From NCBI RefSeq assembly GCF_056746865.1, contig NZ_CM163382.1: a stretch of 64,000 bases of DNA. One strand, 5' to 3'. This document shows, piece after piece, positions 17,879 to 43,870 of this stretch; position 1 is the first letter of the stretch, and every line of letters starts with the position of its first letter. The position numbers and the translations under genes were made by a program. Below the pieces are notes generated by a model. The model did not search any database. It was given only the letters and a program-made list of their open reading frames with translations, and was not told the origin of the DNA.

Positions 17879-18002
17879 ATTTACTCCTTTCTAACATCAC
17901 CAGGAAAAGTATAACGGATTGAAAATACATTGTTTATAAAAACAGCAGGCGCGCGGTAATGGCTGGATTGCGACACGGAGTTACTTTATAATCCGCTACC
18001 AT

Positions 18003-18078
18003 GGCCCCTTAGCTCAGTGGTTAGAGCAGGCGACTCATAATCGCTTGGTCGTTGGTTCAAACCCAACAGGGGCCACCA
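18003..18078 (+). tRNA. ileX: tRNA-Ile (anticodon CAU, ileX-like)
   Basis: 76 nt: 7-bp acceptor stem GGCCCCT/AGGGGCC, D-arm, anticodon loop CTCATAA, T-arm GTTGG-TTCAAAC-CCAAC, 3' CCA. Ile2 rather than Met assignment is from memory of ileX and from position after mug. Confidence 0.85.
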
Positions 18079-18089
18079 TACACAACAAA

Positions 18090-18126
18090 GGGTTAGCTAA
18101 TAAACCAGCTAACCCTTTTTCTTTTT
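18090..18126 (+). terminator. Intrinsic terminator after the tRNA
   Basis: Stem gggttagct / agctaaccc with 8-nt loop, followed by tttttcttttt. Confidence 0.6.
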
Positions 18127-18136
18127 CCTTTGAATT

Positions 18137-18159
18137 GGGTCAGGTAATGGGTCAGGTAA
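18137..18159. repeat. Tandem direct repeat (gggtcaggtaa x2)
   Basis: gggtcaggtaa t gggtcaggtaa read directly, between the tRNA terminator and the first island gene. Confidence 0.5.
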
Positions 18160-18176
18160 GCTTTTTTCCATCTGAC

Positions 18177-19022
18177 TCAGATGGCTGATAATTGTCCCGG
18201 ATAACGCTTTGCAATGATGTCATTTAGCCGATCAACCAGTTCTGGTTTTCTGAATGTGATATGCGCGGAGCCCTTCTTAAAGTATCTGATGCTGAACATC
18301 TCATCTTCATAGCTCTCTTTACCCTGAACAGACTGAATGTGCTCATCCAGACGAATAGTGATGTTTTCCCGATTGTCGGGGATTGGTTTACCGCTGAACA
18401 GGTGCAACATTCTTTCCAGATCGGCGAGTCGGTCAGCCTGTTGTCCGGTGATAAGATGAAATCCCCACCGGTCCCATCTCACCAGATTGTTGACGATAAT
18501 TTTACTGCCAAATTTACAGGGGCAATTGGTTTTGTAATTCCAGTTCAGCCCTCTGAAGACGTTGATCACCCCTCGCTCAAACACCTCATCCTTATTCTGG
18601 TGCAGTTGTTCAAATGTGCTCAGGATGTTCGCTTCGCTGATTTCCGGAAAATTATCGTACTCCAGTGACCGGTACCATGTCTCACGGGCCTGTGCATCCA
18701 TTAAGGAAAGCATCCCGGAACGTTGCATCAAGTCACGCCAGATTTCACGATCGAGATTGTGTGTGATGGCTTTCATTGCCGTTTCAGGTTTCTCCATGAG
18801 CCAGCAGCCACAGCGAAAATCCTGTTTCATCGCCCAGTCCAGTGCGGTTTTACCGCCAATACTTTCTGTCATTGCTGAGATTTCAGCCAGTTGCCGGATA
18901 AGTGTGTTGATTTGCAGCAGTGTACTTTTTCGTACAGCCAGAATGTGGCGGATACTGGTTGAGCAGATAACGTCCGTATGCCCGTTGACTACTTCCGGAC
19001 GGGAGGCTGTGATATCAGACAT
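18177..19022 (-). CDS. Conserved hypothetical protein of CP4-type islands (possibly DUF4942 family)
   Basis: 281 aa ORF at the distal end of the cbtA module; family assignment from memory only. Confidence 0.5.
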   Translation of the reverse strand: MSDITASRPEVVNGHTDVICSTSIRHILAVRKSTLLQINTLIRQLAEISAMTESIGGKTALDWAMKQDFRCGCWLMEKPETAMKAITHNLDREIWRDLMQRSGMLSLMDAQARETWYRSLEYDNFPEISEANILSTFEQLHQNKDEVFERGVINVFRGLNWNYKTNCPCKFGSKIIVNNLVRWDRWGFHLITGQQADRLADLERMLHLFSGKPIPDNRENITIRLDEHIQSVQGKESYEDEMFSIRYFKKGSAHITFRKPELVDRLNDIIAKRYPGQLSAI

Positions 19023-19118
19023 AATCGATATTCCTTTTTGCAGATAAATGAAAACGCCAGCCCTGTTCAGGCTGGCGTCAGTGGAATGAAGTCTGGTGAG
19101 TGAGATGATGAGTGAAAC

Positions 19119-19361
19119 TCACCGGTTCGGGGGCTGAAGCTGCAGTTGGCGCAGGGTACGGATATCCTCCCTGGCCTGTTCAATACAGGACAACAGGGCT
19201 GTCGAATCCGTTTTATCCTCATCGTTGTCAAAGATAATTCCGGATTCACAGTCGATATTGTCCTGCAGCCACGCAATCAGAATATCCAGCGCTGTTTCCG
19301 TGGTTAATGATTTCATGTTGTTTCTGGTTACCAGTCGAAAGTGGGTAAATCCGGCAGACAC
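19119..19361 (-). CDS. Small hypothetical protein (80 aa)
   Basis: ORF overlapping the 3' end of the upstream 162-aa ORF by 34 nt in another frame; may be real or a frame remnant. Confidence 0.3.
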   Translation of the reverse strand: MSAGFTHFRLVTRNNMKSLTTETALDILIAWLQDNIDCESGIIFDNDEDKTDSTALLSCIEQAREDIRTLRQLQLQPPNR

Positions 19362-19816
19362 CCGGCGCTGGCATCCAGATGAATAAGACTGACGCCATAA
19401 CGCCGGATGAGAGTGACAACCAGACGGCGGAAGGTTTTTGACAGGCCCAGACGTTTAAGGTGTAGCACCGGATACGACAAAGCATCGGTACGTAACAGAT
19501 ACCCTCTGCCTGTAAAATGAATCCATTCTGATTCGCCGGTGTCATTCGTCTGATGCGACAGCGAGTACAGCCAGGTGTTGTCCGTTTCCGTGATATGTGC
19601 GGTACTGCAGCGTATGCCGGTAAGGGCAGCAAATGGTGGCGTGCAGTCTGCTGAGGTCCGGTCAGATTCATCAACAACACGAAGGGAGTAGCCGTTATCG
19701 CAGATCATGTTAATCAGTTCAGCGAGATTAACACCATCAATGTCAACGACAATTCGCCCCATATTCAGTGCCTGTACGTTAACGCTGTCGGCTTCCAGTG
19801 TCAGGGTCAGTTGCAT
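19328..19816 (-). CDS. Hypothetical protein (YeeW-like position), translationally coupled to cbtA
   Basis: 162 aa; its ATG overlaps the cbtA stop codon (19807-19816), suggesting co-translation. Confidence 0.5.
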
Positions 19817-20190
19817 CGTTTCGACTCCTGATGCTTACCCAGGGTAATGTTATTTACCGTTCTGTAATTGTCGCGGGTCATCAGGCCGGTTGCCCGGCGA
19901 GCCCGGAGAATATCAATACTGTTTATTAACTGAGAGCGGGTACAGGCGCTGAATCCCGGCTGGTCGGTACGTACCAGTGCGTATTTTTCAACGAGAAAGT
20001 TCACCGCATCGCACAGTGAAATGCCTGCCTCAATATGCTGCTCAATCACACGTTCATCAGCGAACGGTGTGTCATTCAGCGTAAGGCCGTAATGCTGGTC
20101 CAGCAGTCGGGTGAGCAGTGTCTGCCAGATTTCAACCGGAGACGGGCGTGAACTGGCCGCCTGCCCGGGTAATACAGGTAATGTTTTCAT
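19807..20190 (-). CDS. cbtA: CbtA (YeeV) family cytoskeleton-binding toxin
   Basis: 127 aa from internal Met [23 protein letters not shown]... (the track ORF has a 47-aa upstream extension); matches remembered CbtA/YeeV. Confidence 0.85.
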
Positions 20191-20279
20191 ACTGAAGATT
20201 TTCCTGATATGCAGAGATGAAAAATGGAAAAGTGGCGTGGTGAAAGCACCAGGCCGGAGCAGAAGGTTATTCTGGATAG

Positions 20280-20648
20280 TTACCTTTTCGTTTCGGGCGT
20301 CGGATAAACAGCCATATAAACGTAGCCACAACTGCCGAGGGTGTCGGCTTCGCAGGTCAGCCCTTTTGCATACAGCGTGACGGTATGCTGATGGCGGGAA
20401 TTCAGTTCACCGCTGGTGAGCATGAGTTCCAGTTGTTTCATCAGCAGCGGAAAGGCCTGGTCCAGGTGGTACGAATCCGCGTCGCTGAACCGGCCTCTGA
20501 TACCGGCGCGGTCGGCAAGGTAATGCAACCGGTTGCCCTCCTGCACCAGACGGGCGCCAAAACAAGGTGTCACGGTACAGGGCAGCCCCCACCAGGGGCG
20601 GTCGTGATTGTCATCGGGATGCGTTGTCCCGGGCAGTGTGTCTGACAC
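20280..20648 (-). CDS. cbeA: CbeA (YeeU) family antitoxin
   Basis: 122 aa [49 protein letters not shown]..., immediately upstream of cbtA. Confidence 0.85.
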
Positions 20649-20727
20649 AATAAAATCCTCACAGAAAATTGGTTAAGAATGGTCCGGTGGTGGCGATAAT
20701 TCTGCTCTTCTGAATGCCCTTCCGGAC

Positions 20728-20949
20728 TCAGTTCAGGGTGACGCTCATCAGCCGGACATACGGACCAAAACTGTCCTTACGGCGTTCTGCAAACACAGCC
20801 AGCACACCGGGAATATCCTGCACTTCACGGCCGGTATATGTATCCGTGCTACCGTGCCAGCGGTATTTGCCGGTACAGAACGGAAAAAGACGGGATGCCG
20901 GATGTTGTTGGTGAATACGCATGGCTTCACCACGGGTGATGATTTTCAT
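20728..20949 (-). CDS. yeeT: YeeT-like protein (DUF987)
   Basis: 73 aa, position between yeeS and cbeA as in CP4-44. Confidence 0.75.
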   Translation of the reverse strand: MKIITRGEAMRIHQQHPASRLFPFCTGKYRWHGSTDTYTGREVQDIPGVLAVFAERRKDSFGPYVRLMSVTLN

Positions 20950-21017
20950 GGTGTGATACCTCTTAAGACAGAAGATAAAAGTGAAAACAGGTGTGATGTG
21001 GTGGTGACGGTGACGGG

Positions 21018-21494
21018 TTAAAGCAGACCGTGTTCCGCAAAGGAGAAAACCTGGCTGCCACCGACTATCAGATGGTCCGGTACCCGGATATCCACCAGGC
21101 CCAGTGCCTGTACCAGACGTTCCGTGATAAGGCGGTCTGCCTTGCTGGGTGTGACTTCACCGGACGGGTGATTGTGTGCCAGCACCACGGCAGCGGCATT
21201 GTGGTACAGGGCACGTTTAATCACTTCCCGGGGATGGACTTCCGTGCGGTTGATGGTGCCGGTGAAGAGGGTTTCACCGGCAATCAGCTGATTCTGGTTG
21301 TTCAGATACAGCACCCGGAACTCTTCCCGCTCCAGTCCCGCCATGTTCAGAATCAGCCACTCCCGTGCCGCATGCGTGGAGGTGAAGGCCACGCCGGGTT
21401 CATGAAGATGGCGGTCCAGGGTTTTCAGGGCCCGCTGAATGAGGCTGCGCTCGCCGGGCGTCATCTCTCCGGGCAGAAAAGAAAGCTGTTGCAT
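21018..21494 (-). CDS. yeeS: RadC-like JAB-domain protein (YeeS family)
   Basis: 158 aa with HNHPSG metalloprotease-like motif. Confidence 0.8.
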   Translation of the reverse strand: MQQLSFLPGEMTPGERSLIQRALKTLDRHLHEPGVAFTSTHAAREWLILNMAGLEREEFRVLYLNNQNQLIAGETLFTGTINRTEVHPREVIKRALYHNAAAVVLAHNHPSGEVTPSKADRLITERLVQALGLVDIRVPDHLIVGGSQVFSFAEHGLL

Positions 21495-21508
21495 TGTTCC
21501 GGCCCCTT

Positions 21509-21994
21509 TCAGTCAATGATGCGCATAATGGCGTTGCATTCCGGATGCTGCAGGGCGTAATCCCGCAGCCGGTAATAATGGACCGTCATGGCATAACACT
21601 CCGTACGACAGGCATGATGGCTGTACGTCATCAGACAGGCAGCAATGCCGGCGGCTTCCGGGCTCATTTCAGCGCGGTTACCGTTCATGGCACTGAACAG
21701 TACCCATGTTTCGTCATCATCGTCATCCGGTTCGGGTGCCATAAATGCCCCGCCGTTGTTCAGGGTGTACAGATTCCAGATACCACCACAGTAGTCTTCG
21801 CACAGACGATCCATCCAGCCGAAGACACGGGGCTCCAGGGTCACCCACTGTGGAATGAGGCCAAAATGCTGCGGCCAGAAGCTGATGCGCTGTTCATCAG
21901 GGACGAGGGTGGCAACCAGTTGAGGCGGGTTATTCTCTGATACAGCGGTTACGGAAACAGAAGGTGTGGTGGAATTATGCAAAACGGTTGTCAT
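21509..21994 (-). CDS. Antirestriction protein (ArdB/KlcA-like, YfjX-type)
   Basis: 161 aa with acidic stretch (EPDDDDDE); position and size typical of antirestriction proteins in CP4-type islands; assignment from memory. Confidence 0.6.
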   Translation of the reverse strand: MTTVLHNSTTPSVSVTAVSENNPPQLVATLVPDEQRISFWPQHFGLIPQWVTLEPRVFGWMDRLCEDYCGGIWNLYTLNNGGAFMAPEPDDDDDETWVLFSAMNGNRAEMSPEAAGIAACLMTYSHHACRTECYAMTVHYYRLRDYALQHPECNAIMRIID

Positions 21995-22084
21995 GAGATT
22001 ATTCCTTATAAAAAGTAAATGAATGGAAGAAGTCGCGGGGCAGGGACGGACATGAGTCAGAACTGCGCTTTCAGGGAAAAGGCA

Positions 22085-22903
22085 TCAGCGCATACTCTTC
22101 AGCAGTGTTTCTGCCATCACCCACAATGCGCGATTGAGCTTAATGTCGGTGTCGATGCTGTGAATGGCACGGGTATGGATACGTTTTCCTCTGGCACTGC
22201 GACCGGAAATCCCGCCTTTCAGCATATTCTCCTGGATGGTCTGATAAGCACTCCACAGGTCCTTACCGTAATCCTCCCGGCGTCGCGGTGTCAGAATGTC
22301 AGCAGCGGTGACGGGCTGATGTTCGTCACCATAACGGTAAGTCAGTGCCGCCTGTGCCAGCGCCTGGCGTGCCGGTGGCGGCAGGACCAGCGACTGCATG
22401 GCATCACGCTTCTCCTCAATCCGGTCAAAAACCCCCACCACCTCGTAAGCCCCTTCGATAACTTTCTCCACTACGTCTCCCCGGTGTGGAACACGCACTT
22501 CCCCCAGAGACTGACCACAGACGCATCCGTTCTGGCAGACGAACCTGAAGTAACCCGGCAGCATCTGGTAGCTGGAGGTACCGTCATGGGAGTTCAGCAG
22601 GATGATTTCAGGGACATGTTGTCCGTTTATCTCCCCGTCACGGCGCAGACGCAGCATGTGTTTGGTGTATCCCCGGCGGCCCGGGTCGCGCACGCGGGTC
22701 TGGCAGGCGAAGAATGGCTGGAAGCCTTCCCGCTGCAGGCTTTCCAGCACGGTGATGGTGGGGATCCAGGTATAGTTCTCGCTTCTGGATGTGTGTTTCT
22801 CTTCCCCGAATACGCTGGGGACGACCTGCATCAGTTCTTCACGGGTTAAGGGGCGGTCACGGCGTATCTGGTTCGCATAACCAAAACGACTGGCTAATCG
22901 CAT
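22085..22903 (-). CDS. DUF932-family protein (YafZ/YfjQ-like)
   Basis: 272 aa; conserved partner gene of CP4-type islands. Confidence 0.55.
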   Translation of the reverse strand: MRLASRFGYANQIRRDRPLTREELMQVVPSVFGEEKHTSRSENYTWIPTITVLESLQREGFQPFFACQTRVRDPGRRGYTKHMLRLRRDGEINGQHVPEIILLNSHDGTSSYQMLPGYFRFVCQNGCVCGQSLGEVRVPHRGDVVEKVIEGAYEVVGVFDRIEEKRDAMQSLVLPPPARQALAQAALTYRYGDEHQPVTAADILTPRRREDYGKDLWSAYQTIQENMLKGGISGRSARGKRIHTRAIHSIDTDIKLNRALWVMAETLLKSMR

Positions 22904-23175
22904 GATTTATTCCTTATGAATGAGTTAGCGGTGTAAATGAAAAAGCCGCGTCTCCCGGAGAAGACGCGGCCTGATGGACGAAATGAATGACGTTTATTGT
23001 CTGAGAAGCCCTTCACTGGCGAGCTGCGTATTTTTATGGAAGGAGATCACCCAATAACCCCATCGGGATCGGGCAATAACCGGCCAAATTGTGAACGATT
23101 CAGATGCCATTTGGCAGCAAAAGAGCCTTCGGCAATAAACGTGATGTACAACCCGGCATATCTGTTGCTCCCTGA

Positions 23176-23207
23176 AAGTAAAAAGCCCCGGTCATTATGA
23201 CCGGGGC
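23176..23207 (-). terminator. Intrinsic terminator after flu (agn43)
   Basis: Minus-strand hairpin gccccggtca/tgaccggggc (loop taa) followed by U-run (plus-strand aaaaa at 23180-23184), 20 nt after the flu stop. Confidence 0.5.
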
Positions 23208-23229
23208 CTGAAGGGGAGTGACCTGATTA

Positions 23230-26076
23230 TCAGAAAGTCACATTCAGCGTGGCCTGACCGTTATAGCCTTCAGCGCTGTTGCCGCTGACACTGTGGGCAT
23301 AACCGGCCTGAACGCCCAGAGTGATATTTTCCCGGACACGGGCTTCCAGTCCGGCCTGCAGGTCCAGTGACGTGCCATTCTGTGACGGTGAGAACGTCAT
23401 GTTACTGCCGGCTTCAGCTGTACCCATGCTCATGTCACCCCGGGAGCTGAAAGTGCGGATAACAGAAGGCTGTACCCACCAGTTCACCGGCAGTTCACTC
23501 ACACGGTGTTTTGTACTGTCGCGCAGAGTGTCACGGGATGAGGTGCCTTCGCCAAAGGTCATATCGTTGTGGCTGCCCAGACGGAAGCCGGCACGCACAT
23601 GTTGTGTACTGCCATGCCCGAACTTCACATAACCGGCGTTATCCTGGCCGTCATCCAGGGAGAGCCCCTGCCAGGTGTACTGCAGTTGTGGCTCCAGCAT
23701 CAGGTTGTCAGTGATACTGAAGGGCAGACCGGTTTCCAGTGAGCCCAGCCAGCCCCAGCCCCGGGCGCGGAAGTCGTTATTGTCCGATGACGCTTTCATG
23801 CTGTGGCGGGTTCCCTGTGCCACAATGTCAGCCCACAGGCCGGAGGACGTGTGTGTCAGATTCAGGTATCCGCCCAGGCTGCCGGCATCATCCCGGACTG
23901 TGCCGGCGCGGGAACCGTCATCATCCTTAACATCAACGGAAGAATGACCTGCAGCACCATACACCCCTGTCGTCAGAGACATACCTGCAACCTCTGTTCT
24001 CAGCAGGTCACCCTCCAGACGGACGAAGCCATAGCTGCCGCTGCTTTCCGGCGTGGCTCCACGGGCAATACCGCCGTTGTTATCGTGACCGAGATGACCG
24101 CCCTGAATGCTGAGACGGACGCTGTTATTTTCACCGTTTACACCGGTCTGATGGCTGCGGGAGCCTGCCAGAATCCGGTCATAGTCCATTGCCTGTGTCA
24201 GCATGGAGGCATACAGGGGGACTTCAGCACGATAAGCATTTTCACTGCGCAGGTACCAGTCTTCATCGCTGTCACGGTTCAGGGTGTAGTTAAAGGCACC
24301 GGCCTGAAGCGGGCGACTCAGGGCAAACGCACCTTCTTCTGTGGTGGCACCATTCTGTGCATCCACAACCCGGATACCCTGTCCGGAGGTTGCCACCCCG
24401 AGGTTACTGTTTCCGACATTTGTGAACGCAAGCCAGGTTTTGCCGGTTGCCTGACCACCATTAATCACCAGCTGGTCAGAGGCATTGCTGCCATCAAGGC
24501 GAACACGCATATTGATGGTGCCACCCTGACCGGTGAGGTTACTGGTTGTCAGTTTATGGAACGTTACCGGGGCGTTGCCTTTTGCAACAGCACGGCTCAG
24601 TATGGCATCCGGTGTTGTCTGATTGTCAAAGTAAATCTCCCCTGCGTTAACAATATCGCCGGTACTGACCACATCACCATTCAGTACCATGCTGGCGCCT
24701 TTACTGAGCTGTGTTCTGCCACTCAGACTTCCCCCGGCAGCCAGCATCAGTGTTCCACGATGTCCGACAGTGGTGTTGCCAGCCTGTCCCCCGGCATTAA
24801 CCGTAAAGCTGCCGCCATTTTCCAGCAGCAGGCCGCTGGCCTGACCGGATATGCCATCAATACTGAACTTACCGCTGGCATTGGTCCCCTCAACAGTGGC
24901 ACCACTGTCTGCAATCAGGGCACCACCGGATGTCATGGTGACACCTGTCGCCTTACCACCGGCAGACACTGCCAGGGTTCCGCCGTCATCCACCCGTGTT
25001 TTCTGCGCTGAATGGCCCTCCAGTACATCCAGGCGACCGCCGGACTCCAGAACAACACCGTCAGCCTTACCGTTTTCCACCGTGAAATTCCCCAGACGGT
25101 TGCTGCCGGTGACGGTTGCCGCCGTACTGGTGACCAGTGCGCCGCCCTGCTTCAGGGTGACATTCGTGGCTGTACCACCGGCGTTCACCTGCAGTTTGCC
25201 TTTCTGGTTAACGGTGGAGAAATCCGCCAGACCACCTTCCTTGATAATCTGCCAGCCGTCACTGTTTACAACAGTGCCAGACGCCGTACCGCCGTTGTGC
25301 ACATACTGGTACCCCCCATTCAGCGTGGTATCCAGTGCGTGACCATGTACAGTCTGGTCGCCGCCGGCATAAACCACAGTGGTATTTGCCGTTCCTTCAG
25401 CAGCCACAATCTGACGACCATTTTTATTGATGGTGGTGCGTACGGCATCTCCGTAGACGGTCTGCCCGGTATCACCATTTTCTGCATCCGGTCCCCCTTC
25501 CGCGCCGGTATTCACAACCGTGTCGGTTGCCATTGCGCCGGATTTGACGGCCTGCCAGCCCTTCTCATTAATGACGGTACCCGTTGCAATCCCGCCTTCA
25601 TGTATCCACTGCTCACCGCCGTTCAGAGTGGTGTTCACTGCCTGCCCCTGAAGGCTCTGTCCGCCTCCGGCACTGATAACCGTGTCTGAAACGCTTCCTC
25701 CGGCATTCACTCTCTGAAGACCACCACCGGTGACAGTAGTGTTGTTGGCGGTACCGCCATTTTGTATCCATTGGCCGCCGGTATTCGCCTCGTTATCCGG
25801 CCCATACTCCAGCCCGGTACTGATGGTCATTCCGTTGGCCGTACCGAAGACAATCTGGTTGTCATGATTTGTCAGTGTTCCGCCGCTCACGGTTTCTCCC
25901 GCCTGTACGACCGTGTCAGCAGCCAGTACCGGGACTGACGTGACAGCAGCAAGAGACAGCGCAACCGCCACACCGGTGCGTTTTCCCCGTGAGCGCGCCA
26001 GTTCGGAAGCCACCACCAGGGTGCCCGTAATGTGATTCCATACCAGCCTGTAGCTGGTGTTCAGATGTCGTTTCAT
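23230..26076 (-). CDS. flu: Antigen 43 self-associating autotransporter adhesin
   Basis: 948 aa from Met MKRHLNTSYRLVWNH... (26th codon of the track ORF); long signal peptide, repetitive passenger domain, C-terminal beta-barrel ending NVTF. Confidence 0.88.
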   Translation of the reverse strand: MKRHLNTSYRLVWNHITGTLVVASELARSRGKRTGVAVALSLAAVTSVPVLAADTVVQAGETVSGGTLTNHDNQIVFGTANGMTISTGLEYGPDNEANTGGQWIQNGGTANNTTVTGGGLQRVNAGGSVSDTVISAGGGQSLQGQAVNTTLNGGEQWIHEGGIATGTVINEKGWQAVKSGAMATDTVVNTGAEGGPDAENGDTGQTVYGDAVRTTINKNGRQIVAAEGTANTTVVYAGGDQTVHGHALDTTLNGGYQYVHNGGTASGTVVNSDGWQIIKEGGLADFSTVNQKGKLQVNAGGTATNVTLKQGGALVTSTAATVTGSNRLGNFTVENGKADGVVLESGGRLDVLEGHSAQKTRVDDGGTLAVSAGGKATGVTMTSGGALIADSGATVEGTNASGKFSIDGISGQASGLLLENGGSFTVNAGGQAGNTTVGHRGTLMLAAGGSLSGRTQLSKGASMVLNGDVVSTGDIVNAGEIYFDNQTTPDAILSRAVAKGNAPVTFHKLTTSNLTGQGGTINMRVRLDGSNASDQLVINGGQATGKTWLAFTNVGNSNLGVATSGQGIRVVDAQNGATTEEGAFALSRPLQAGAFNYTLNRDSDEDWYLRSENAYRAEVPLYASMLTQAMDYDRILAGSRSHQTGVNGENNSVRLSIQGGHLGHDNNGGIARGATPESSGSYGFVRLEGDLLRTEVAGMSLTTGVYGAAGHSSVDVKDDDGSRAGTVRDDAGSLGGYLNLTHTSSGLWADIVAQGTRHSMKASSDNNDFRARGWGWLGSLETGLPFSITDNLMLEPQLQYTWQGLSLDDGQDNAGYVKFGHGSTQHVRAGFRLGSHNDMTFGEGTSSRDTLRDSTKHRVSELPVNWWVQPSVIRTFSSRGDMSMGTAEAGSNMTFSPSQNGTSLDLQAGLEARVRENITLGVQAGYAHSVSGNSAEGYNGQATLNVTF

Positions 26077-26293
26077 CAGCTTTTCCTTACAGAGGGTGAA
26101 TAAAAAAGCCGGTACCCACAAATGTGGATACCGGCAGGTACAAAACAGCATGGTCAGATAAAGTGGTTTTTCCCGGACATAAATGCTTCCCCTCTCTCAT
26201 CCGCCAGAGAAGTATCAGTCCGTTGTGTGCAATTCCGTTCTGCATGATGAAGAGATTCAACTGCCTTTTCGCAGGCCATTAACCACTATAAAC

Positions 26294-26329
26294 GATCGAT
26301 AGTAACGATCGATACCTGTTTTATTGATC
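26294..26329 (-). promoter_or_regulatory. agn43 phase-variation switch region (three Dam GATC sites, presumed OxyR operator)
   Basis: GATC at 26294-26297, 26307-26310 and 26326-26329 within 36 bp, about 220-250 bp upstream of the flu ATG. Confidence 0.65.
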
Positions 26330-26448
26330 GTTTTATTCTATTGATTGCAAGGCGGTCACGCAAGAGAAACAGGAGGATCATGAGGTGTTTGTGTCATGTT
26401 TTCAGTTGGTTAACGCAATGTAATCAGGCATTTCCCCTGGCAGACTGT

Positions 26449-27321
26449 TCAGAAGAAAATCCAGTTCCATACAGCGCGGGCAACAGAGACCACCGAGTCA
26501 CGGACGGCACGCAGAACCGTGCGTGCAACAGAGGCAATACAGACGCTCTCCGCCGTGTCAAATATCCGGTCCACCGCACCGGTAAACTGTTCACGGGCCT
26601 GAGACCGGACAGATTCCGTGCGCAGCTCGTCCTGCAGGCGGGTCATCAGGGGACTGGCGGCATGGTCGGGAAGCGCTGTCATGAGCGCACTGACCAGCGT
26701 ATCCAGTTCCCAGCCGGTGCAGGCCGATACGGCCACAACCGGATGTACGGGTCGGAACAGCCGGAATACCGCATCTGTTTTCTCACGAATGTTCTGTGCC
26801 TGTGCGGGAGAAGGCTGAATGCCGGCCATATCCCATTCATGGCAGGGCTCCGTTTTGTCGGCCTGCGTCACCACAAACAGTACCCGCTGATGTCCCCGGT
26901 GCAGGATGTGTCGCCAGAAATACTCATCCACAGACAGGGCACGGTCATCGGCTTTAATCAGCCACAGTACCAGGTCAAGTTCAGGCAGAATGTTACGGTA
27001 CAGGGCTTCATACTCTGCATCCCTGTCCCGGCTCTCGCCCACCCCGGGCAGGTCAGTGATAATCATGCTGTGACCGTGGCCACTCAGACGGAAGCGCTGC
27101 ACTTCCCGGGTGCCGGCGTGAACATCACTGACCGGTGTGACTTCCCCCTGAAACAGCGCATTACAGAGTGAGGATTTACCGGCCCCGCTTTTACCCATAA
27201 TGCCAATCACGGGTTCGTGGCTGGTGAGTTTACGCAGATGTTCCAGGATGTGACGGGAAAGCGAATAAGGCAGGGAGGAGAGCGGTTTTTCAATTGCCTC
27301 AATGGCATCAGACGGATTCAT
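26449..27321 (-). CDS. YeeP/YfjP/YkfA-family GTPase
   Basis: P-loop GIMGKSGAGKSS and DxxG (TDLPGVGE); start taken at MNPSDAIEAI (14th codon of the track ORF). Confidence 0.75.
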   Translation of the reverse strand: MNPSDAIEAIEKPLSSLPYSLSRHILEHLRKLTSHEPVIGIMGKSGAGKSSLCNALFQGEVTPVSDVHAGTREVQRFRLSGHGHSMIITDLPGVGESRDRDAEYEALYRNILPELDLVLWLIKADDRALSVDEYFWRHILHRGHQRVLFVVTQADKTEPCHEWDMAGIQPSPAQAQNIREKTDAVFRLFRPVHPVVAVSACTGWELDTLVSALMTALPDHAASPLMTRLQDELRTESVRSQAREQFTGAVDRIFDTAESVCIASVARTVLRAVRDSVVSVARAVWNWIFF

Positions 27322-27584
27322 ATATGTATTCCCGGTGAAAAAAGACAAAACCCCGCGCACCGGAAAGGTGGCGGGGGATTCACGGAGATAATATCTGTCT
27401 GAAATTATTTAGAATGCACCTGGTGCACTGCAAAGGAAAGGCAGTATTCCGTTCCTCCTCCTTGTCGTGAATACCCCAGGTATCTCACAATGTACACCGA
27501 CTTACTCCGGGGCTGCCTGAACCACAAGATTGCTGTAGAATTGCCCCCAATGATTCAGGTCCAAACCAGGCAAATGGATTAAAA

Positions 27585-29141
27585 ATGACAAGTATTCAAC
27601 AACGAGCAGAACTGCACCGCCAGATATGGCAAATTGCCAATGATGTCAGAGGTTCTGTTGACGGATGGGATTTTAAGCAATACGTTCTGGGCGCACTTTT
27701 CTACCGTTTTATCAGCGAAAATTTTTCCAGTTATATTGAAGCCGGTGATGACAGTATCTGTTATGCGAAACTGGATGACAGCGTAATTACTGATGACATT
27801 AAAGACGATGCCATCAAAACTAAAGGCTACTTCATCTACCCCAGTCAGCTTTTCTGCAACGTAGCGGCGAAAGCAAATACTAATGACAGGCTGAATGCAG
27901 ATTTAAACAGCATCTTCGTTGCTATCGAAAGTTCTGCTTACGGTTATCCTTCAGAAGCTGACATCAAAGGTTTGTTTGCTGATTTCGATACCACCAGTAA
28001 CCGCCTGGGTAACACCGTTAAGGATAAAAATGCCCGCCTGGCTGCGGTTCTGAAAGGGGTTGAAGGGTTAAAACTTGGTGACTTCAACGAACATCAGATT
28101 GACCTGTTCGGTGATGCCTATGAGTTCCTGATTTCTAACTATGCGGCAAATGCCGGTAAGTCAGGCGGTGAGTTCTTTACACCGCAGCACGTCTCCAGGC
28201 TGATTGCACAACTGGCTATGCACGGGCAGACCAGCGTTAACAAAATCTACGACCCGGCAGCGGGTTCCGGCTCACTGTTGTTGCAGGCGAAAAAACAGTT
28301 TGATAACCACATCATCGAAGAAGGCTTTTTCGGTCAGGAAATCAACCATACGACCTATAACCTGGCGCGTATGAACATGTTTTTGCACAACATCAACTAC
28401 GACAAGTTTGATATCAAGCTGGGTAATACACTGACTGAGCCACACTTCAGAGATGAAAAACCGTTTGATGCCATCGTTTCTAACCCGCCGTATTCGGTGA
28501 AATGGATTGGCAGCGATGACCCGACGCTGATTAACGATGAACGTTTTGCCCCGGCTGGCGTTCTGGCCCCCAAATCAAAAGCTGACTTCGCCTTTGTACT
28601 ACATGCGCTGAACTATCTTTCTGCCAAAGGTCGCGCCGCGATTGTCTGCTTCCCGGGTATTTTTTACCGTGGCGGCGCGGAGCAGAAAATCCGTCAGTAT
28701 CTGGTCGATAATAACTATGTCGAAACCGTGATTTCACTGGCACCGAACCTGTTCTTTGGCACCACCATTGCCGTCAATATTCTGGTGCTGTCTAAACATA
28801 AAACGGATACCAAAGTTCAGTTTATTGACGCCAGCGAACTGTTCAAAAAAGAGACTAATAACAACATCCTGACCGATGCTCATATCGAACAGATTATGCA
28901 GGTATTTGCCGGCAAGGAAGATGTTGCTCATCTGGCGAAATCTGTCACGTTTGAGACTGTTGTCGCGAATGACTATAACCTGTCGGTGAGCAGCTATGTG
29001 GAAGCGAAAGATAACCGCGAAGTGGTGGACATTGCTCAGCTCAACGCCGAGCTGAAATCTACTGTCGCCAGGATTGACCAGCTTCGCAGGGATATTGATG
29101 CCATCGTCGCTGAAATTGAAGGCGAGGAGCAGGAGGCATGA
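27585..29141 (+). CDS. hsdM: Type I restriction-modification system, N6-adenine DNA methyltransferase subunit
   Basis: 518 aa; AdoMet motif [10 protein letters not shown] and catalytic NPPY ([11 protein letters not shown]); N-terminal HsdM domain. Confidence 0.92.
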
Positions 29142-30343
29142 GTAGCGTGAACTTCTTGGAAAAGCTGTTGGATGGCGTTGAGGTCGAGTGGAAGACACTT
29201 GGGCAAACTTGCAAAATTGAAACAGGAAAGCTTAATGCGAATGCGGCTGTTGATGATGGAGAGTATATGTTCTTCACGACAGCCAAAGAGACAAGCAAAA
29301 TTGATAAATTCCGCTGGGATACAGAGGCATTGCTGATTGCAGGCAATGCGAATGTTGGTGAGGTGAAGCATTACATCGGCAAGTTTGAGGCTTATCAGCG
29401 CACCTATGTTCTGACAAATTTCGACGAAAATGTAAGTGTTAGATTTTTGTATTTTGTGCTTAGCCATAGCCTGAAGAAATATCTCGAGGAAAGAACAAAT
29501 AGCGCGGCAATGACATATATCGTGCTATCAACCTTAGAGAATTTCCCTATCCCCATCCCCTGCCCAGGCAACCCCCAAAAATCCCTTGCCATCCAGTCTG
29601 AAATCGTTCGGATTCTGGATAAATTTACTGCACTTACCGCTGAGCTTACCGCTGAGCTTAACATGCGTAAAAAACAGTACAACTACTATCGCGACCAGTT
29701 GTTGAGTTTTAAAGAGGGTGAGGTTGAGTGGAAGACTTTGGGGGAAATTGGAGATTTTACATATGGATATGCAGCCAAAGCCATGGATTCAGGAGATGCC
29801 CGTTTCGTGAGAATTACTGACATAAATAAAGACGGGAAGCTATCGAAAGAAAACCCAATGTACGTTGAATTAAATGAGGAAAATGAGAAATATACCTTAG
29901 ACAAAAATGATTTACTCATGGCAAGAACTGGGGCAACCTTTGGTAAAACAATGATTTTTGAAGAAGATTATCCAGCAGTATACGCTGGTTTTTTAATAAA
30001 GTTGAACCTAAATAAAACGATTATTAATGCCAAATATTACTGGCACTTTGCACAAAGTGATTTTTTTTGGGAACAGGCTAATAAATTAGTATCTGGTGGT
30101 GGGCAACCACAGTTTAATGCTAATGCACTGAAACAAGTCAGAGTACCTATTCCATACCCATCTCACCCTCAAAAATCTTTAGACGAACAGGGGCGTATTG
30201 TGGATATTCTGGATAAGTTTGATGCAATCGCAGCTTCCATCACCGAAGGTCTCCCGCGTGAAATCGAGTTACGTCAAAAACAATACGAATACTATCGTGA
30301 TTTACTGCTCAGTTTCCCAAAACCTGAAACTGTCAGTAAATAA
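29138..30343 (+). CDS. hsdS: Type I R-M specificity subunit (type IC architecture)
   Basis: 401 aa; ATG overlaps hsdM stop; two variable recognition domains separated by a conserved central region with TAELTAEL and conserved distal region ([24 protein letters not shown]). Confidence 0.9.
29633..29656 (+). repeat. 12-bp tandem repeat cttaccgctgag x2 in hsdS (TAEL x2)
   Basis: Two perfect tandem copies plus a 4-nt partial third (ctta), read directly; encodes LTAELTAEL in the HsdS central spacer. Confidence 0.9.
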
Positions 30344-30464
30344 TTGACCATTGCTACCGACCGGGCCTCCTTAACATCCGGTCAGTATATAGACTATTTT
30401 TTACGCGCCGGAAGTCACTCTTAACGCCCTTCCGGCTCTTGCCAGGCGGCACAAAGGATGCGCT

Positions 30465-33400
30465 ATGACTCATCAAACACACACCATTGCTGAATCCAAT
30501 AACTTTATCGTCCTTGATAAGTACATCAAAGCTGAGCAAACAAGCGACAGCTACCAGAGCGAATCGGACCTGGAACGTGAACTGATTCAGGACCTGCGGA
30601 ATCAGGGTTATGAATTTATTTCCGTAAAATCACAGTCGGCAATGCTGTCTAATGTTCGGGAACAGCTTCAGAGCCTCAATGGTGTGATGTTTAATGACAG
30701 CGAGTGGCGGCGCTTCACGGAGCAGTATCTGGACAACCCCAGCGATGGTATTCTGGATAAAACCCGTAAAATCCATATCGACTATATCTGCGACTTTATT
30801 TTTGACGACGGGCGACTTGAGAACATCTATTTGATAGATAAAAAGAATCTCATGCGCAATAAGGTGCAGATTATCCAGCAGTTTGAACAGACGGGTTCTC
30901 ATGCTAACCGTTATGACGTCACGATCCTGGTTAATGGTTTACCGCTGGTGCAAATCGAACTAAAAAAACGCGGGGTGGCGATTCGTGAGGCTTTCAACCA
31001 GATACATCGTTACAGTAAAGAGAGTTTTAACAGCGAAAATTCCCTGTTTAAGTATCTGCAACTGTTTGTCATTTCTAACGGCACCGATACCCGTTATTTT
31101 GCCAACACGACAAAGCGCGATAAAAACAGTTTTGACTTCACCATGAATTGGGCGAAATCAGACAACACGCTGATTAAAGACCTCAAAGACTTTACCGCTA
31201 CCTTTTTCCAGAAACATACTCTGCTGAATGTTCTGGTGAACTACAGCGTTTTTGACAGTAGTCAGACGCTACTGGTGATGCGACCGTACCAGATTGCCGC
31301 CACCGAGCGCATTCTGTGGAAAATTAAGAGTTCCTTTACAGCGAAGAACTGGTCAAAACCGGAAAGCGGTGGGTATATCTGGCACACTACCGGTTCTGGT
31401 AAAACCCTCACCAGCTTTAAAGCCGCGCGTCTGGCAACAGAGCTGGACTTTATTGATAAAGTCTTCTTTGTGGTCGACAGGAAAGACCTCGATTACCAGA
31501 CCATGAAGGAATATCAGCGTTTTTCGCCAGACAGCGTCAACGGCTCGGAAAATACCGCAGGCCTTAAACGAAATCTGGATAAGGACGATAACAAAATTAT
31601 CGTCACTACTATTCAGAAACTCAATAACCTGATGAAAGCAGAAAGCGACCTGCCTGTATATAATCAGCAAGTGGTGTTTATATTTGATGAATGCCACCGC
31701 AGCCAGTTTGGAGAAGCGCAGAAAAACCTGAAGAAGAAATTCAAACGCTATTATCAGTTTGGTTTTACCGGCACCCCTATTTTCCCGGAAAACGCCTTAG
31801 GCTCAGAAACAACCGCCAGCGTATTTGGCCGTGAATTGCATTCGTATGTGATTACCGATGCGATTCGTGACGAAAAAGTGCTCAAATTCAAGGTGGACTA
31901 CAACGATGTGCGGCCACAGTTTAAGTCTTTAGAGACAGAAACTGACGAGAAAAAACTGAGTGCGGCTGAAAATCAGCAGGCGTTTCTTCACCCCATGCGT
32001 ATTCAGGAAATCACGCAATATATCCTGAATAATTTCCGCCAGAAAACCCACCGTACTTTCCCTGGTTCCAAAGGTTTTAATGCCATGCTGGCAGTAAGCA
32101 GCGTGGATGCTGCAAAAGCCTATTATGCGACGTTTAAACGGTTACAAGAGGAAGCCGCTAATAAATCTGTAACTTATAAACCGCTGCGTGTTGCGACAAT
32201 CTTCTCCTTTGCCGCTAATGAAGAACAAAATGCCATTGGTGAAATTTCCGATGAAACTTTTGATACCAGCGCAATGGACAGCAGTGCTAAAGAGTTTCTT
32301 GACGCTGCAATTCGTGAGTATAACAGCTATTTTAAAACTAACTTCAGCACCGACGGTAACGGTTTTCAGAACTACTATCGTGATTTAGCCCAACGGGTTA
32401 AAAATCAGGATATCGATCTGTTAATTGTCGTGGGAATGTTTTTAACCGGCTTCGATGCTCCAACATTAAACACGCTATTCGTCGATAAAAACTTGCGTTT
32501 TCACGGCCTGATGCAGGCATTCTCCCGCACCAACCGCATTTATGACGCGACTAAAACCTTCGGTAATATTGTCACGTTCCGGGATCTGGAACGCTCAACC
32601 ATTGATGCCATAACGCTGTTTGGTGATAAAAATACCAAAAATGTGGTTTTAGAAAAGAGTTATGCAGAGTATATGGAAGGCTTTACTGATGCTGCCACTG
32701 GTGAAGCTAAACGCGGCTTCATGACAGTAGTTTCAGAACTGGAACAACGGTTCCCTGACCCTACCAGTATTGAAAGTGAAAAAGAGAAGAAAGACTTCGT
32801 TAAACTGTTTGGCGAATACCTGCGTGCCGAGAATATCCTGCAAAACTATGATGAATTTGCCACGCTAAAAGCCCTGCAACAAATCGATCTTAGCGATCCT
32901 GTTGCGGTAGAAAAATTCAAAGCAGAACATTATGTGGATGATGAAAAGTTCGCTGAATTGCAAACAATTCGTCTCCCTGCTGATCGCAAGATTCAGGATT
33001 ATCGTTCTGCCTATAACGATATTCGCGACTGGCAGCGCCGTGAGAAAGAAGCTGAGAAAAAAGAGAAATCAACCACTGACTGGGATGACGTAGTTTTTGA
33101 GGTCGATTTGCTGAAGTCTCAGGAAATAAACCTGGATTATATCCTTGGACTGATTTTCGAACACAACAGACAAAATAAAGGCAAGGGCGAAATGATCGAA
33201 GAGGTCAAACGCTTAATTCGTTCAAGCCTGGGGAACCGTGCTAAAGAGGGCCTGGTGGTCGATTTTATTCAGCAAACGAACCTGGATGATTTACCGGACA
33301 AAGCCAGCATCATTGACGCATTCTTTACGTTTGCTCAACGCGAACAGCAACGTGAAGCAGAAGCCTTGATCAAAGAAGAAAATCTCAATGAAGAGGCGGC

Positions 33401-33581
33401 GAAACGCTATATTCGCACATCTTTAAAACGCGAATACGCCACCGAAAATGGCACGGAATTAAACGAGACACTGCCCAGACTCAGTCCTTTAAATCCGCAA
33501 TATAAAACGAAAAAACAGACTGTTTTTCAAAAAATTAGCGCATTTATTGAAAAATTTAAGGGGGTGGGTGGAAAGATTTAG
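30465..33581 (+). CDS. hsdR: Type I R-M restriction endonuclease/helicase subunit
   Basis: 1038 aa; helicase motif I (TGSGKT) and DEAD-like box ([12 protein letters not shown]); length and sequence recall EcoR124I HsdR. Confidence 0.92.
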
Positions 33582-33731
33582 GGAAGGTGCGAATAAGCAG
33601 GTCATTTCTTCCCAAGCTGACTCGCTGATTAAAATTTCGCGGATCTGGGCCGATTTTTTTCCCGCAAACACATCGAATCGGCCTGTTTAGGCTATTTTTT
33701 CCACCATTTCTGGCGTTATTTCCGGTTTTTA

Positions 33732-36015
<2,284 letters not shown>

Positions 36016-41301: not shown

Positions 41302-41413
41302 GTGAGATTTGGTGCTTAGCACAAATATAAATATTTGTGATCATTATCAAAATGTAAATGATAACGCATCTTTATTATCATTTGAGATTAAATATCACGC
41401 AGCGTTAATCTAA

Positions 41414-43870
<2,457 letters not shown>

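What the first reader, a model, noticed from the sequence alone, without database searches (positions are those of the whole stretch)
27585..33581. Chromosomal type IC R-M system (EcoR124I-like) with divergent recognition domains, so probably a different specificity
HsdR is 1038 aa and HsdS has the TAEL-repeat central region and the conserved distal motif typical of the EcoR124I family. Both variable domains differ completely from the EcoR124I domains as I remember them, predicting a different target sequence. Gene order is hsdM-hsdS-hsdR with no prrC-like gene in the 121-bp hsdS-hsdR gap.
Basis: partly seen in the sequence, partly recalled or inferred. Interest (0 to 1): 0.6.

Follow-up and report, generated by a model that had tools for sequence, protein, structure and literature searches.

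The report
EcoR124-family type I restriction system, island-borne
This is an intact, ordinary restriction-modification system of the well-studied EcoR124 (type IC) family whose DNA-reading domains differ from the textbook enzyme; the same allele is already present in hundreds of sequenced E. coli isolates and on P1-like phage-plasmids, so it is a routine find.

Summary
hsdM (27585-29141), hsdS (29138-30343) and hsdR (30465-33581) are intact, separated by a 121-bp gap with no prrC. HsdM and HsdR are about 98% identical to the EcoR124I/II subunits, and all catalytic motifs are present. HsdS keeps the EcoR124 framework (central region 94% identical, two TAEL repeats), but its two target-recognition domains (TRDs) are only 23% and 20% identical to those of EcoR124I. 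A different target sequence is therefore the sound inference. The allele is not rare. The exact HsdS occurs on 779 public contigs and in 48 of 5,426 complete E. coli genomes. A version with both TRDs 100% identical at DNA level sits on P1/P7-like phage-plasmids such as pD72-mcr1. "Chromosomal" needs qualifying: the system lies in a horizontally acquired island at a tRNA-Ile(CAU) gene beside mug-rpoD. Each TRD also occurs independently with other partners (61 and 91 genomes), and a sister island has three TAEL repeats, which is textbook type IC modular evolution. I found no published recognition sequence, and REBASE was not available. It is a new or uncharacterised member of a known kind, of low interest.

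The parts
27536..27541 (+). -10-like hexamer TAGAAT inside a conserved block TTGCTGTAGAAT (27530-27541), 43 nt upstream of the hsdM start. It is a candidate hsdM-hsdS promoter element.
   Evidence: The block is conserved between the island copy and the phage-plasmid copy although the surrounding upstream DNA is otherwise unrelated. Its function is inferred and was not tested. The consensus scan did not call a full sigma-70 site here.
27585..29141 (+). hsdM, the N6-adenine DNA methyltransferase subunit (518 aa)
   Evidence: The ORF is. It matches the EcoR124II M protein 7bst_D over residues 1-515 at 1132 bits. NCBIfam TIGR00497 hsdM scores 647 bits against a cut-off of 243. The motifs DPAAGSG (223) and NPPY (300) are present. 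The exact protein is on 723 contigs.
29138..30343 (+). hsdS, the specificity subunit (401 aa), which overlaps hsdM by 4 bp (ATGA)
   Evidence: The ORF is and the overlap. There are two Pfam Methylase_S domains, at residues 15-174 and 196-377. It matches the EcoR124 S subunit 7bst_A only in the conserved framework. The exact protein is on 779 contigs.
29198..29539 (+). TRD1, the N-terminal target-recognition domain (about residues 21-134). It should read the 5' half-site.
   Evidence: It is 23% identical to EcoR124 TRD1. It shows 0 mismatches in 342 nt against plasmid pD72-mcr1 although the flanks are diverged. It is present in 61 of 5,426 E. coli genomes. In strain 2018-01-1CC an unrelated TRD replaces it.
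29540..29752 (+). Central conserved region (coiled-coil helix D1) that links the two TRDs
   Evidence: It is 94% identical in protein to EcoR124 S and 96.7% identical in DNA to the plasmid copy.
29633..29660 (+). 12-bp tandem repeat (CTTACCGCTGAG, 2.3 copies) encoding TAEL-TAEL. This is the spacer-length ruler of family IC.
   Evidence: The repeat is shown, and the residues (167 and 171). Its role rests on established knowledge: EcoR124I (2 repeats, N6) versus EcoR124II (3 repeats, N7), from PMC3874165. The sister allele in L003 has 3 repeats.
29753..30169 (+). TRD2, the C-terminal target-recognition domain (about residues 206-344). It should read the 3' half-site.
   Evidence: It is 20% identical to EcoR124 TRD2. 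It shows 0 mismatches in 417 nt against pD72-mcr1. It is present in 91 of 5,426 E. coli genomes and is shared with the 2018-01-1CC allele.
30344..30464 (+). hsdS-hsdR intergenic region (121 bp) with no ORF. It holds a promoter-like site (TTAACA-18-TATTTT, 30371-30400) and an AAGGA ribosome-binding site ahead of hsdR.
   Evidence: The sequence is and the consensus match, although such matches are no more frequent here than in shuffled sequence. The region is 90.9% conserved in the plasmid copy. A separate hsdR promoter is inferred, not shown.
30465..33581 (+). hsdR, the ATP-dependent translocase and endonuclease subunit (1038 aa)
   Evidence: It matches EcoR124I HsdR 2w00_A over residues 1-1038 at 2273 bits. 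NCBIfam TIGR00348 scores 766 bits against a cut-off of 285. The nuclease residues D151/E165/K167, the Walker A motif GSGKT (310) and the DECH box (408) are present. The exact protein is on 173 contigs.

Best explanation
This is a functional type IC (EcoR124-family) restriction-modification system.

The mechanism below is inferred from established family biochemistry. HsdS and two HsdM subunits form an M2S1 methyltransferase. It reads a bipartite, asymmetric target: TRD1 reads the 5' half-site and TRD2 reads the 3' half-site. It then methylates one adenine on each strand. When HsdR joins (R1-2M2S1) and the site is unmodified, the complex uses ATP to reel in flanking DNA and cuts it at a distance. 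This protects the cell, and stabilises the island, against unmodified incoming phage and plasmid DNA.

Both TRDs are unrelated to those of EcoR124I, so the target should differ from GAA-N6-RTCG. HsdS has two TAEL repeats on an otherwise EcoR124I-like coiled coil. The two methylated adenines are therefore predicted to lie 7 bp apart, as in EcoR124I, rather than 8 bp apart as in the three-repeat enzymes.

Shown here: intact genes and motifs, family membership by sequence, TRD divergence, and the modular distribution of the TRDs. Inferred: activity, expression and the geometry of the target.
For: - Intact ORFs and junctions.
- Near-identity of HsdM and HsdR to the biochemically and structurally characterised EcoR124 subunits, and scores well above the curated NCBIfam cut-offs.
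- All catalytic motifs are present.
- HsdS has two Methylase_S domains on the conserved EcoR124 framework, with TRDs only 20-23% identical.
- Purifying selection is evident. Codon differences between the island and phage-plasmid copies are mostly synonymous: 57 vs 16 in hsdM and 64 vs 13 in hsdR.
- The exact protein sequences are widespread: 723, 779 and 173 contigs. A private inactivating mutation is therefore unlikely.
- The rules for TRD modularity and for TAEL spacing come from PMC3874165.
Against: - No expression, methylation or restriction data exist for this locus.
- The promoter assignments are consensus-level only, and such matches are not enriched over shuffled sequence.
- The same island encodes an ArdB/KlcA-type antirestriction protein that could dampen type I restriction.
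- HsdR carries about 16 substitutions relative to EcoR124I, of unknown effect.
- Relative to EcoR124 S, there is a 7-residue insertion (PSHPQKS) at the junction between TRD2 and the distal helix. This could shift the geometry, so the 7-bp prediction is not certain.
Confidence: 0.85

Rival explanations
1. The genes are intact, but the system is silent or restriction-deficient in this strain. It would act as a methyltransferase only, or not be expressed at all. Possible causes are the island context, the co-resident antirestriction protein, or the IS5 element that abuts the hsdR stop codon.
For: - A Pfam Antirestrict gene lies 5.6 kb upstream in the same island.
- An IS5-family end starts immediately after the hsdR stop codon.
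- No strong sigma-70 consensus lies upstream of hsdM.
Against: - All three ORFs and their motifs are intact.
- Substitutions are mostly synonymous.
- The IS5 insertion leaves the HsdR C-terminus (GVGGKI) the same as in the plasmid copy.
- The same IS5 junction is shared by several lineages that keep hsdR intact.
Confidence: 0.1
2. The system recognises a sequence that is already characterised. In that case the TRD pair, or each TRD separately, matches a REBASE entry with an assigned motif, and nothing about the specificity is new.
For: - The allele is in 48 of 5,426 complete genomes, many of them assembled from long reads that REBASE routinely mines.
- The ST101 study shows that such assignments are made routinely, for example Eco067II = CCAG-N6-RTTG.
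Against: - Neither accession number appears in the searchable literature.
- No TRD homologue carries a characterised enzyme's name.
- TRD2 is absent from the pIP1206-type plasmids of known specificity.
- None of this excludes a REBASE entry.
Confidence: 0.6
3. The system serves mainly as an addiction or stability module for the mobile elements that carry it (the genomic island and P1-like phage-plasmids), rather than as a defence for the host.
For: - On the phage-plasmids the cassette lies directly next to the phd/doc addiction module.
- In the window it lies in an island that also carries a CbtA/YeeU toxin-antitoxin pair.
- The homology between the two elements is limited to the three-gene cassette.
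Against: - Established knowledge (PMC3874165 and PMC12707154): type IC systems show restriction alleviation and establish efficiently in naive hosts. Type I systems are generally regarded as weak addiction modules.
- This reading is compatible with the main explanation rather than exclusive of it.
Confidence: 0.15

Closest known systems
EcoR124I / EcoR124II (type IC prototype, plasmid R124; GAA-N6-RTCG / GAA-N7-RTCG)
   Same: - HsdR is the same length (1038 aa) and about 98% identical over the part of the alignment that was shown; the match scores 2273 bits.
- HsdM is about 98% identical.
- The HsdS framework is the same, including two TAEL repeats as in EcoR124I.
- The gene order is hsdM-hsdS-hsdR, with a short gap before hsdR.
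   Different: - Both TRDs are unrelated, at 23% and 20% identity, so the half-sites should differ.
- There is a 7-residue insertion after TRD2.
- The system is carried on a chromosomal tRNA-Ile island and on P1-like phage-plasmids rather than on plasmid R124.
EcoprrI (prrABCD; type IC with an embedded anticodon nuclease; CCA-N7-RTGC)
   Same: It is a chromosomal E. coli type IC system with the hsdM-hsdS-...-hsdR layout (PMC3874165).
   Different: - There is no prrC: the hsdS-hsdR gap is 121 bp with no ORF.
- The window has two TAEL repeats, against three in EcoprrI.
- I could not compare the TRDs, because no EcoprrI sequence was available.
The unnamed type I system of P7-like mcr-1 phage-plasmids (pMCR_SCKP-LL83, MF510496; pD72-mcr1)
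   Same: - It is the same three-gene cassette (window 27572-33581).
- Both TRDs are 100% identical at DNA level, so the predicted specificity is the same.
   Different: - The conserved scaffold is diverged: hsdM 94.6%, the hsdS N-terminal segment 75%, and the gap 90.9%.
- It lies next to phd/doc on a phage-plasmid rather than in a tRNA island.
The hsdS allele of the sister island in E. coli 2018-01-1CC (L003)
   Same: It has the same island backbone at tRNA-Ile beside mug-rpoD, the same TRD2 (1 nt different) and a nearly identical hsdR.
   Different: It has an unrelated, longer TRD1 and three TAEL repeats, giving an HsdS of 426 aa.

Membership tests
Type IC (EcoR124) family of type I R-M systems | HsdR and HsdM share high amino-acid sequence similarity with the family prototypes. 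Families are defined by complementation, antibody cross-reaction and sequence (PMC3874165). | tested here: met
   HsdR scores 2273 bits against EcoR124I HsdR over residues 1-1038. HsdM scores 1132 bits against the EcoR124II M subunit over residues 1-515. By comparison, HsdM scores only 64 bits against EcoKI M.
Type IC (EcoR124) family of type I R-M systems | HsdS begins and ends within the distal conserved region and has a central conserved region that carries TAEL repeats. | tested here: met
   The N-terminal 20 residues are 70% identical, the central region 94% and the C-terminal region 77% to EcoR124 S. TAEL occurs twice, at residues 167 and 171.
Type IC (EcoR124) family of type I R-M systems | Gene order hsdM-hsdS-hsdR, with hsdR transcribed from its own promoter | tested here: inconclusive
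   The gene order is confirmed. In the 121-bp gap there is only a weak consensus promoter match at 30371-30400, and such matches are not enriched over shuffled sequence. The gap is conserved in the plasmid copy.
Type IC (EcoR124) family of type I R-M systems | Subunits can be exchanged with EcoR124I (genetic complementation) | not testable with these tools
   This needs an in vivo complementation experiment.
Type IC (EcoR124) family of type I R-M systems | Separation of 7 bp (two TAEL repeats) or 8 bp (three repeats) between the methylated adenines of a bipartite target | not testable with these tools
   This needs methylome data. The prediction from two TAEL repeats is 7 bp.
Type I R-M system (general) | Intact catalytic motifs: methyltransferase motifs I and IV, the HsdR PD-(D/E)xK nuclease, Walker A and the DEAD/DECH box | tested here: met
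   DPAAGSG (223) and NPPY (300) in HsdM. D151/E165/K167, GSGKT (310) and DECH (408) in HsdR.
EcoprrI-type prr locus (type IC plus PrrC anticodon nuclease) | A prrC gene embedded between hsdS and hsdR | tested here: not met
   The gap is 121 bp with no ORF.
EcoR124I specificity (GAA-N6-RTCG) | TRDs homologous to those of EcoR124I | tested here: not met
   TRD1 is 23% identical and TRD2 is 20% identical.

The most novel reading that the evidence does not exclude
The TRD1/TRD2 pair may specify a recognition sequence that is not yet assigned in REBASE.

The two TRDs are perfectly identical at DNA level between chromosomal islands and P1/P7-like phage-plasmids, although the scaffolds are diverged. 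This may reflect selection for shared specificity. A phage-plasmid carrying the same specificity as a common chromosomal island would enter those hosts already modified, and vice versa. TRD exchange could happen by gene conversion in cells that hold both copies, as strain BS74R-D does.
Probability: 0.25. Interest if true: 0.35.

Novelty: new member of a known kind. Interest (0 to 1): 0.15.

Why it matters
The practical value is modest. Knowing the target sequence would help predict barriers to DNA transfer, including the spread of mcr-1 and CTX-M phage-plasmids, among the livestock-associated and human E. coli that carry this allele. It would also allow plasmids to be engineered to evade the system. 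The locus is a clean natural example of two textbook modes of type IC diversification: TRD swapping, and TAEL repeat-number change between sister islands. It raises no open question about mechanism.

Tried and rejected
1. Literature search for the HsdS accessions WP_059239974 and WP_001293319 gave no hits.
2. Searches of E. coli methylome papers (ST131, ST101) and of papers on P1-like elements found motifs only for other type I alleles. The phage-plasmid copy is described only as "unnamed".
3. Separate TRD searches against 5.8 billion proteins found many relatives at 60-88% identity, mostly half-size S subunits from distant phyla. None carried a characterised enzyme's name.
4. NgoAV lead: the 69%-identical Neisseria relative of TRD2 is from N. 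mucosa, not the characterised N. gonorrhoeae NgoAV, so I dropped this lead.
5. pIP1206 / Eco067II (CCAG-N6-RTTG) lead: TRD2 is absent from that large plasmid group, where hits are either 82% or above in a few phage-plasmid-sized records or below 40%. TRD1 was not tested against plasmids at protein level.
6. A weak NCBIfam hit of TRD2 to the N-terminal TRD of the EcoKI-HsdS model (52 bits against a cut-off of 662) was not supported. A PDB sequence search with either TRD gave only noise.
7. prrC or any other gene in the hsdS-hsdR gap: none.
8. No half-site could be inferred with the tools available.
Full report
**1. Observation**

hsdM and hsdS overlap by 4 bp (ATGA), which is consistent with translational coupling. 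The hsdS-hsdR gap is 121 bp and holds no ORF. The region has a lower G+C content (0.43-0.48) than its surroundings (0.53-0.58), as expected for acquired DNA.

**2. Identity of the proteins**

- HsdR aligns over its full 1038 residues with EcoR124I HsdR (PDB 2w00) at 2273 bits. About 16 substitutions are visible in the roughly 1010 residues that were shown.
- HsdM aligns over residues 1-515 with the EcoR124II M subunit (7bst_D) at 1132 bits. It scores only 64 bits against EcoKI M.
- Curated NCBIfam models give 647 bits for hsdM (cut-off 243) and 766 bits for hsdR (cut-off 285). PADLOC models agree.
- The catalytic motifs are intact. HsdM has DPAAGSG (223) and NPPY (300). HsdR has the nuclease residues D151/E165/K167, Walker A GSGKT (310) and DECH (408).

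**3. The specificity subunit**

HsdS has two Pfam Methylase_S domains. Against the EcoR124 S subunit (7bst_A), identity by region is as follows.

| Region (residues) | Identity to EcoR124 S |
|---|---|
| N-terminus (1-20) | 70% |
| TRD1 (21-134) | 23% |
| Central conserved (135-205) | 94% |
| TRD2 (206-344) | 20% |
| C-terminus (345-401) | 77% |

TAEL occurs twice, at residues 167 and 171. It is encoded by a perfect 12-bp tandem repeat at 29633-29660.

According to Loenen et al. (PMC3874165), TRDs in family IC are exchangeable modules that each specify one half-site. The number of TAEL repeats sets the spacing: EcoR124I has 2 repeats (GAA-N6-RTCG, methyl interval 7), while EcoR124II, EcoDXXI and EcoprrI have 3 repeats (interval 8).

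I add a prediction: the two methylated adenines should lie 7 bp apart. One caveat is a 7-residue insertion (PSHPQKS) at the junction between TRD2 and the distal helix, relative to EcoR124 S.

**4. Context**

The window contains dnaG, rpoD and mug, followed by a tRNA with a CAU anticodon at 18003-18078. ARAGORN calls it tRNA-Met, but RefSeq annotates the homologous gene as tRNA-Ile. From that tRNA onward lies a genomic island that contains, in order:

- a DUF4942 gene;
- a CbtA/YeeU toxin-antitoxin pair;
- RadC/JAB;
- an Antirestrict (PF03230) gene;
- DUF932;
- an Ag43 autotransporter;
- a YeeP-like GTPase;
- hsdMSR.

An IS5-family end (GGAAGGTGCGAATAAG) begins directly after the hsdR stop codon and leaves the ORF intact.

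Strain PEC148 carries the same island (99.6% identical over 18000-34515), but at a tRNA-Ile gene next to the gab operon. The system is therefore chromosomal but clearly on mobile DNA. A 2025 review reports type IC systems as absent from the classical immigration control region and present in 4% of a tRNA-leuX hotspot (PMC12707154). Type IC systems in tRNA-anchored islands are thus already known.

**5. Distribution**

- The exact HsdS protein is on 779 public contigs.
- hsdS is matched at 80% coverage or more in 48 of 5,426 complete E. coli genomes.
- 1,279 genomes match at least part of the query, which for most of them can only be the conserved framework. EcoR124-family hsdS genes therefore appear to be common in E. 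coli.
- The exact HsdM is on 723 contigs and the exact HsdR on 173.
- A copy sits on P1/P7-like phage-plasmids next to phd/doc, for example pD72-mcr1 and pMCR_SCKP-LL83. [quoted passage not shown]
- Homology between the window and the phage-plasmid is confined to 27572-33581, which is the cassette itself.

**6. Modular evolution seen directly**

Identity between the window and pD72-mcr1, by segment:

| Segment | DNA identity |
|---|---|
| hsdM | 94.6% |
| hsdS N-terminal conserved | 75% |
| TRD1 | 100% (0 of 342 nt differ) |
| Central conserved | 96.7% |
| TRD2 | 100% (0 of 417 nt differ) |
| C-terminal conserved | 94.8% |
| hsdS-hsdR gap | 90.9% |
| hsdR | 95.8-99.3% |

At the divergence of the flanks, about 5%, roughly 38 differences would be expected across the two TRDs. 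The TRDs must therefore have been exchanged recently between diverged scaffolds.

Other observations point the same way.

- Each TRD occurs independently of the other: TRD1 in 61 genomes, TRD2 in 91, and both together in 48.
- Strain BS74R-D carries the island-type and the plasmid-type copies in one cell, which gives an opportunity for gene conversion.
- The sister island in strain 2018-01-1CC has the same TRD2, an unrelated TRD1 and three TAEL repeats.

All of this is the known behaviour of family IC.

**7. Is it functional?**

No frameshift, stop codon or motif loss was found. Differences between the island and plasmid copies are mostly synonymous: 57 synonymous against 16 non-synonymous codons in hsdM, and 64 against 13 in hsdR. 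The exact sequences are widespread. This argues for maintained function, but nothing here measures activity.

The promoter calls are weak. A conserved TAGAAT lies 43 nt upstream of hsdM, and a 9/12 consensus match lies in the hsdS-hsdR gap.

**8. Specificity**

I could not determine the target sequence.

- Neither TRD matches a named, characterised enzyme.
- Neither has a sequence relative among solved S-subunit structures.
- TRD2 is absent from the pIP1206-type plasmids, whose motif is known.
- Literature searches by accession number and by topic gave nothing.
- REBASE, the decisive resource, was not available.

**9. Verdict**

The finding is an ordinary member of a very well-characterised family, and the allele is common and already catalogued. 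It is best filed as a new, or at least functionally uncharacterised, member of a known kind. Interest is low.

Noticed in passing
window 21509-21994 (- strand): An ArdB/KlcA-type antirestriction gene (Pfam Antirestrict PF03230, E = 7e-37) lies in the same genomic island as the type I R-M system, about 5.6 kb upstream. Whether it dampens the island's own HsdR activity is unknown.
   Followed up: partly
window 18003-18078 (+), compared with L001 8866-8941: The island's attachment site is a tRNA with a CAU anticodon, which ARAGORN calls Met and RefSeq annotates as tRNA-Ile. In the window it lies beside mug-rpoD-dnaG. In strain PEC148 a 99.6%-identical island lies at a tRNA-Ile gene beside the gab operon, so the island occurs at two tRNA-Ile sites.
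   Followed up: partly
window 33576-35002 and 41408-42834: An IS5-family (ISKpn26-like) element begins right at the hsdR stop codon and is itself interrupted by an IS3-family ISEc31. The IS5/ISEc31 unit is repeated 7,832 bp downstream (98% identity over the 300-nt reference copy). The two copies bracket a DMSO/selenate-reductase-like operon, so the arrangement looks like a composite-transposon or recombination structure.
   Followed up: partly
L003 15138-16418 (E. coli 2018-01-1CC): The sister island's hsdS has three TAEL repeats and a different TRD1 but the same TRD2. It is a natural counterpart of the EcoR124I/II spacer change and would allow half-sites to be assigned if the methylomes were compared.
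   Followed up: yes
L004 and L005 (E. coli BS74R-D chromosome and plasmid pBS74R-D_2): One strain carries two copies of the system with identical TRDs on diverged scaffolds: a chromosomal island copy and a P1-like phage-plasmid copy. This is redundant specificity in one cell and gives an opportunity for gene conversion.
   Followed up: partly
plasmid NZ_CP141766.1, 48535-49720 (hits H57, H194, H200): In one duck E. coli phage-plasmid the hsdS match is 1 nt shorter, tblastn splits it into two pieces, and no gene is annotated there. It is probably a frameshifted pseudogene copy of the same allele.
   Followed up: no
window about 52115-53623 (- strand; mapped from L001 33885-35393): A group II intron reverse transcriptase/maturase (ltrA) lies inside an IS3-family remnant further along the island. 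A related copy (95.8% identical) interrupts ISEc31 in strain 2018-01-1CC.
   Followed up: no
window 23230-26151 (-) and 26449-27360 (-): An Ag43/Cah-family autotransporter adhesin and a YeeP-like GTPase lie immediately upstream of hsdM. The GTPase-hsdMSR adjacency recurs in a different island context in strain BS74R-D, where a dynamin-family gene lies upstream.
   Followed up: partly
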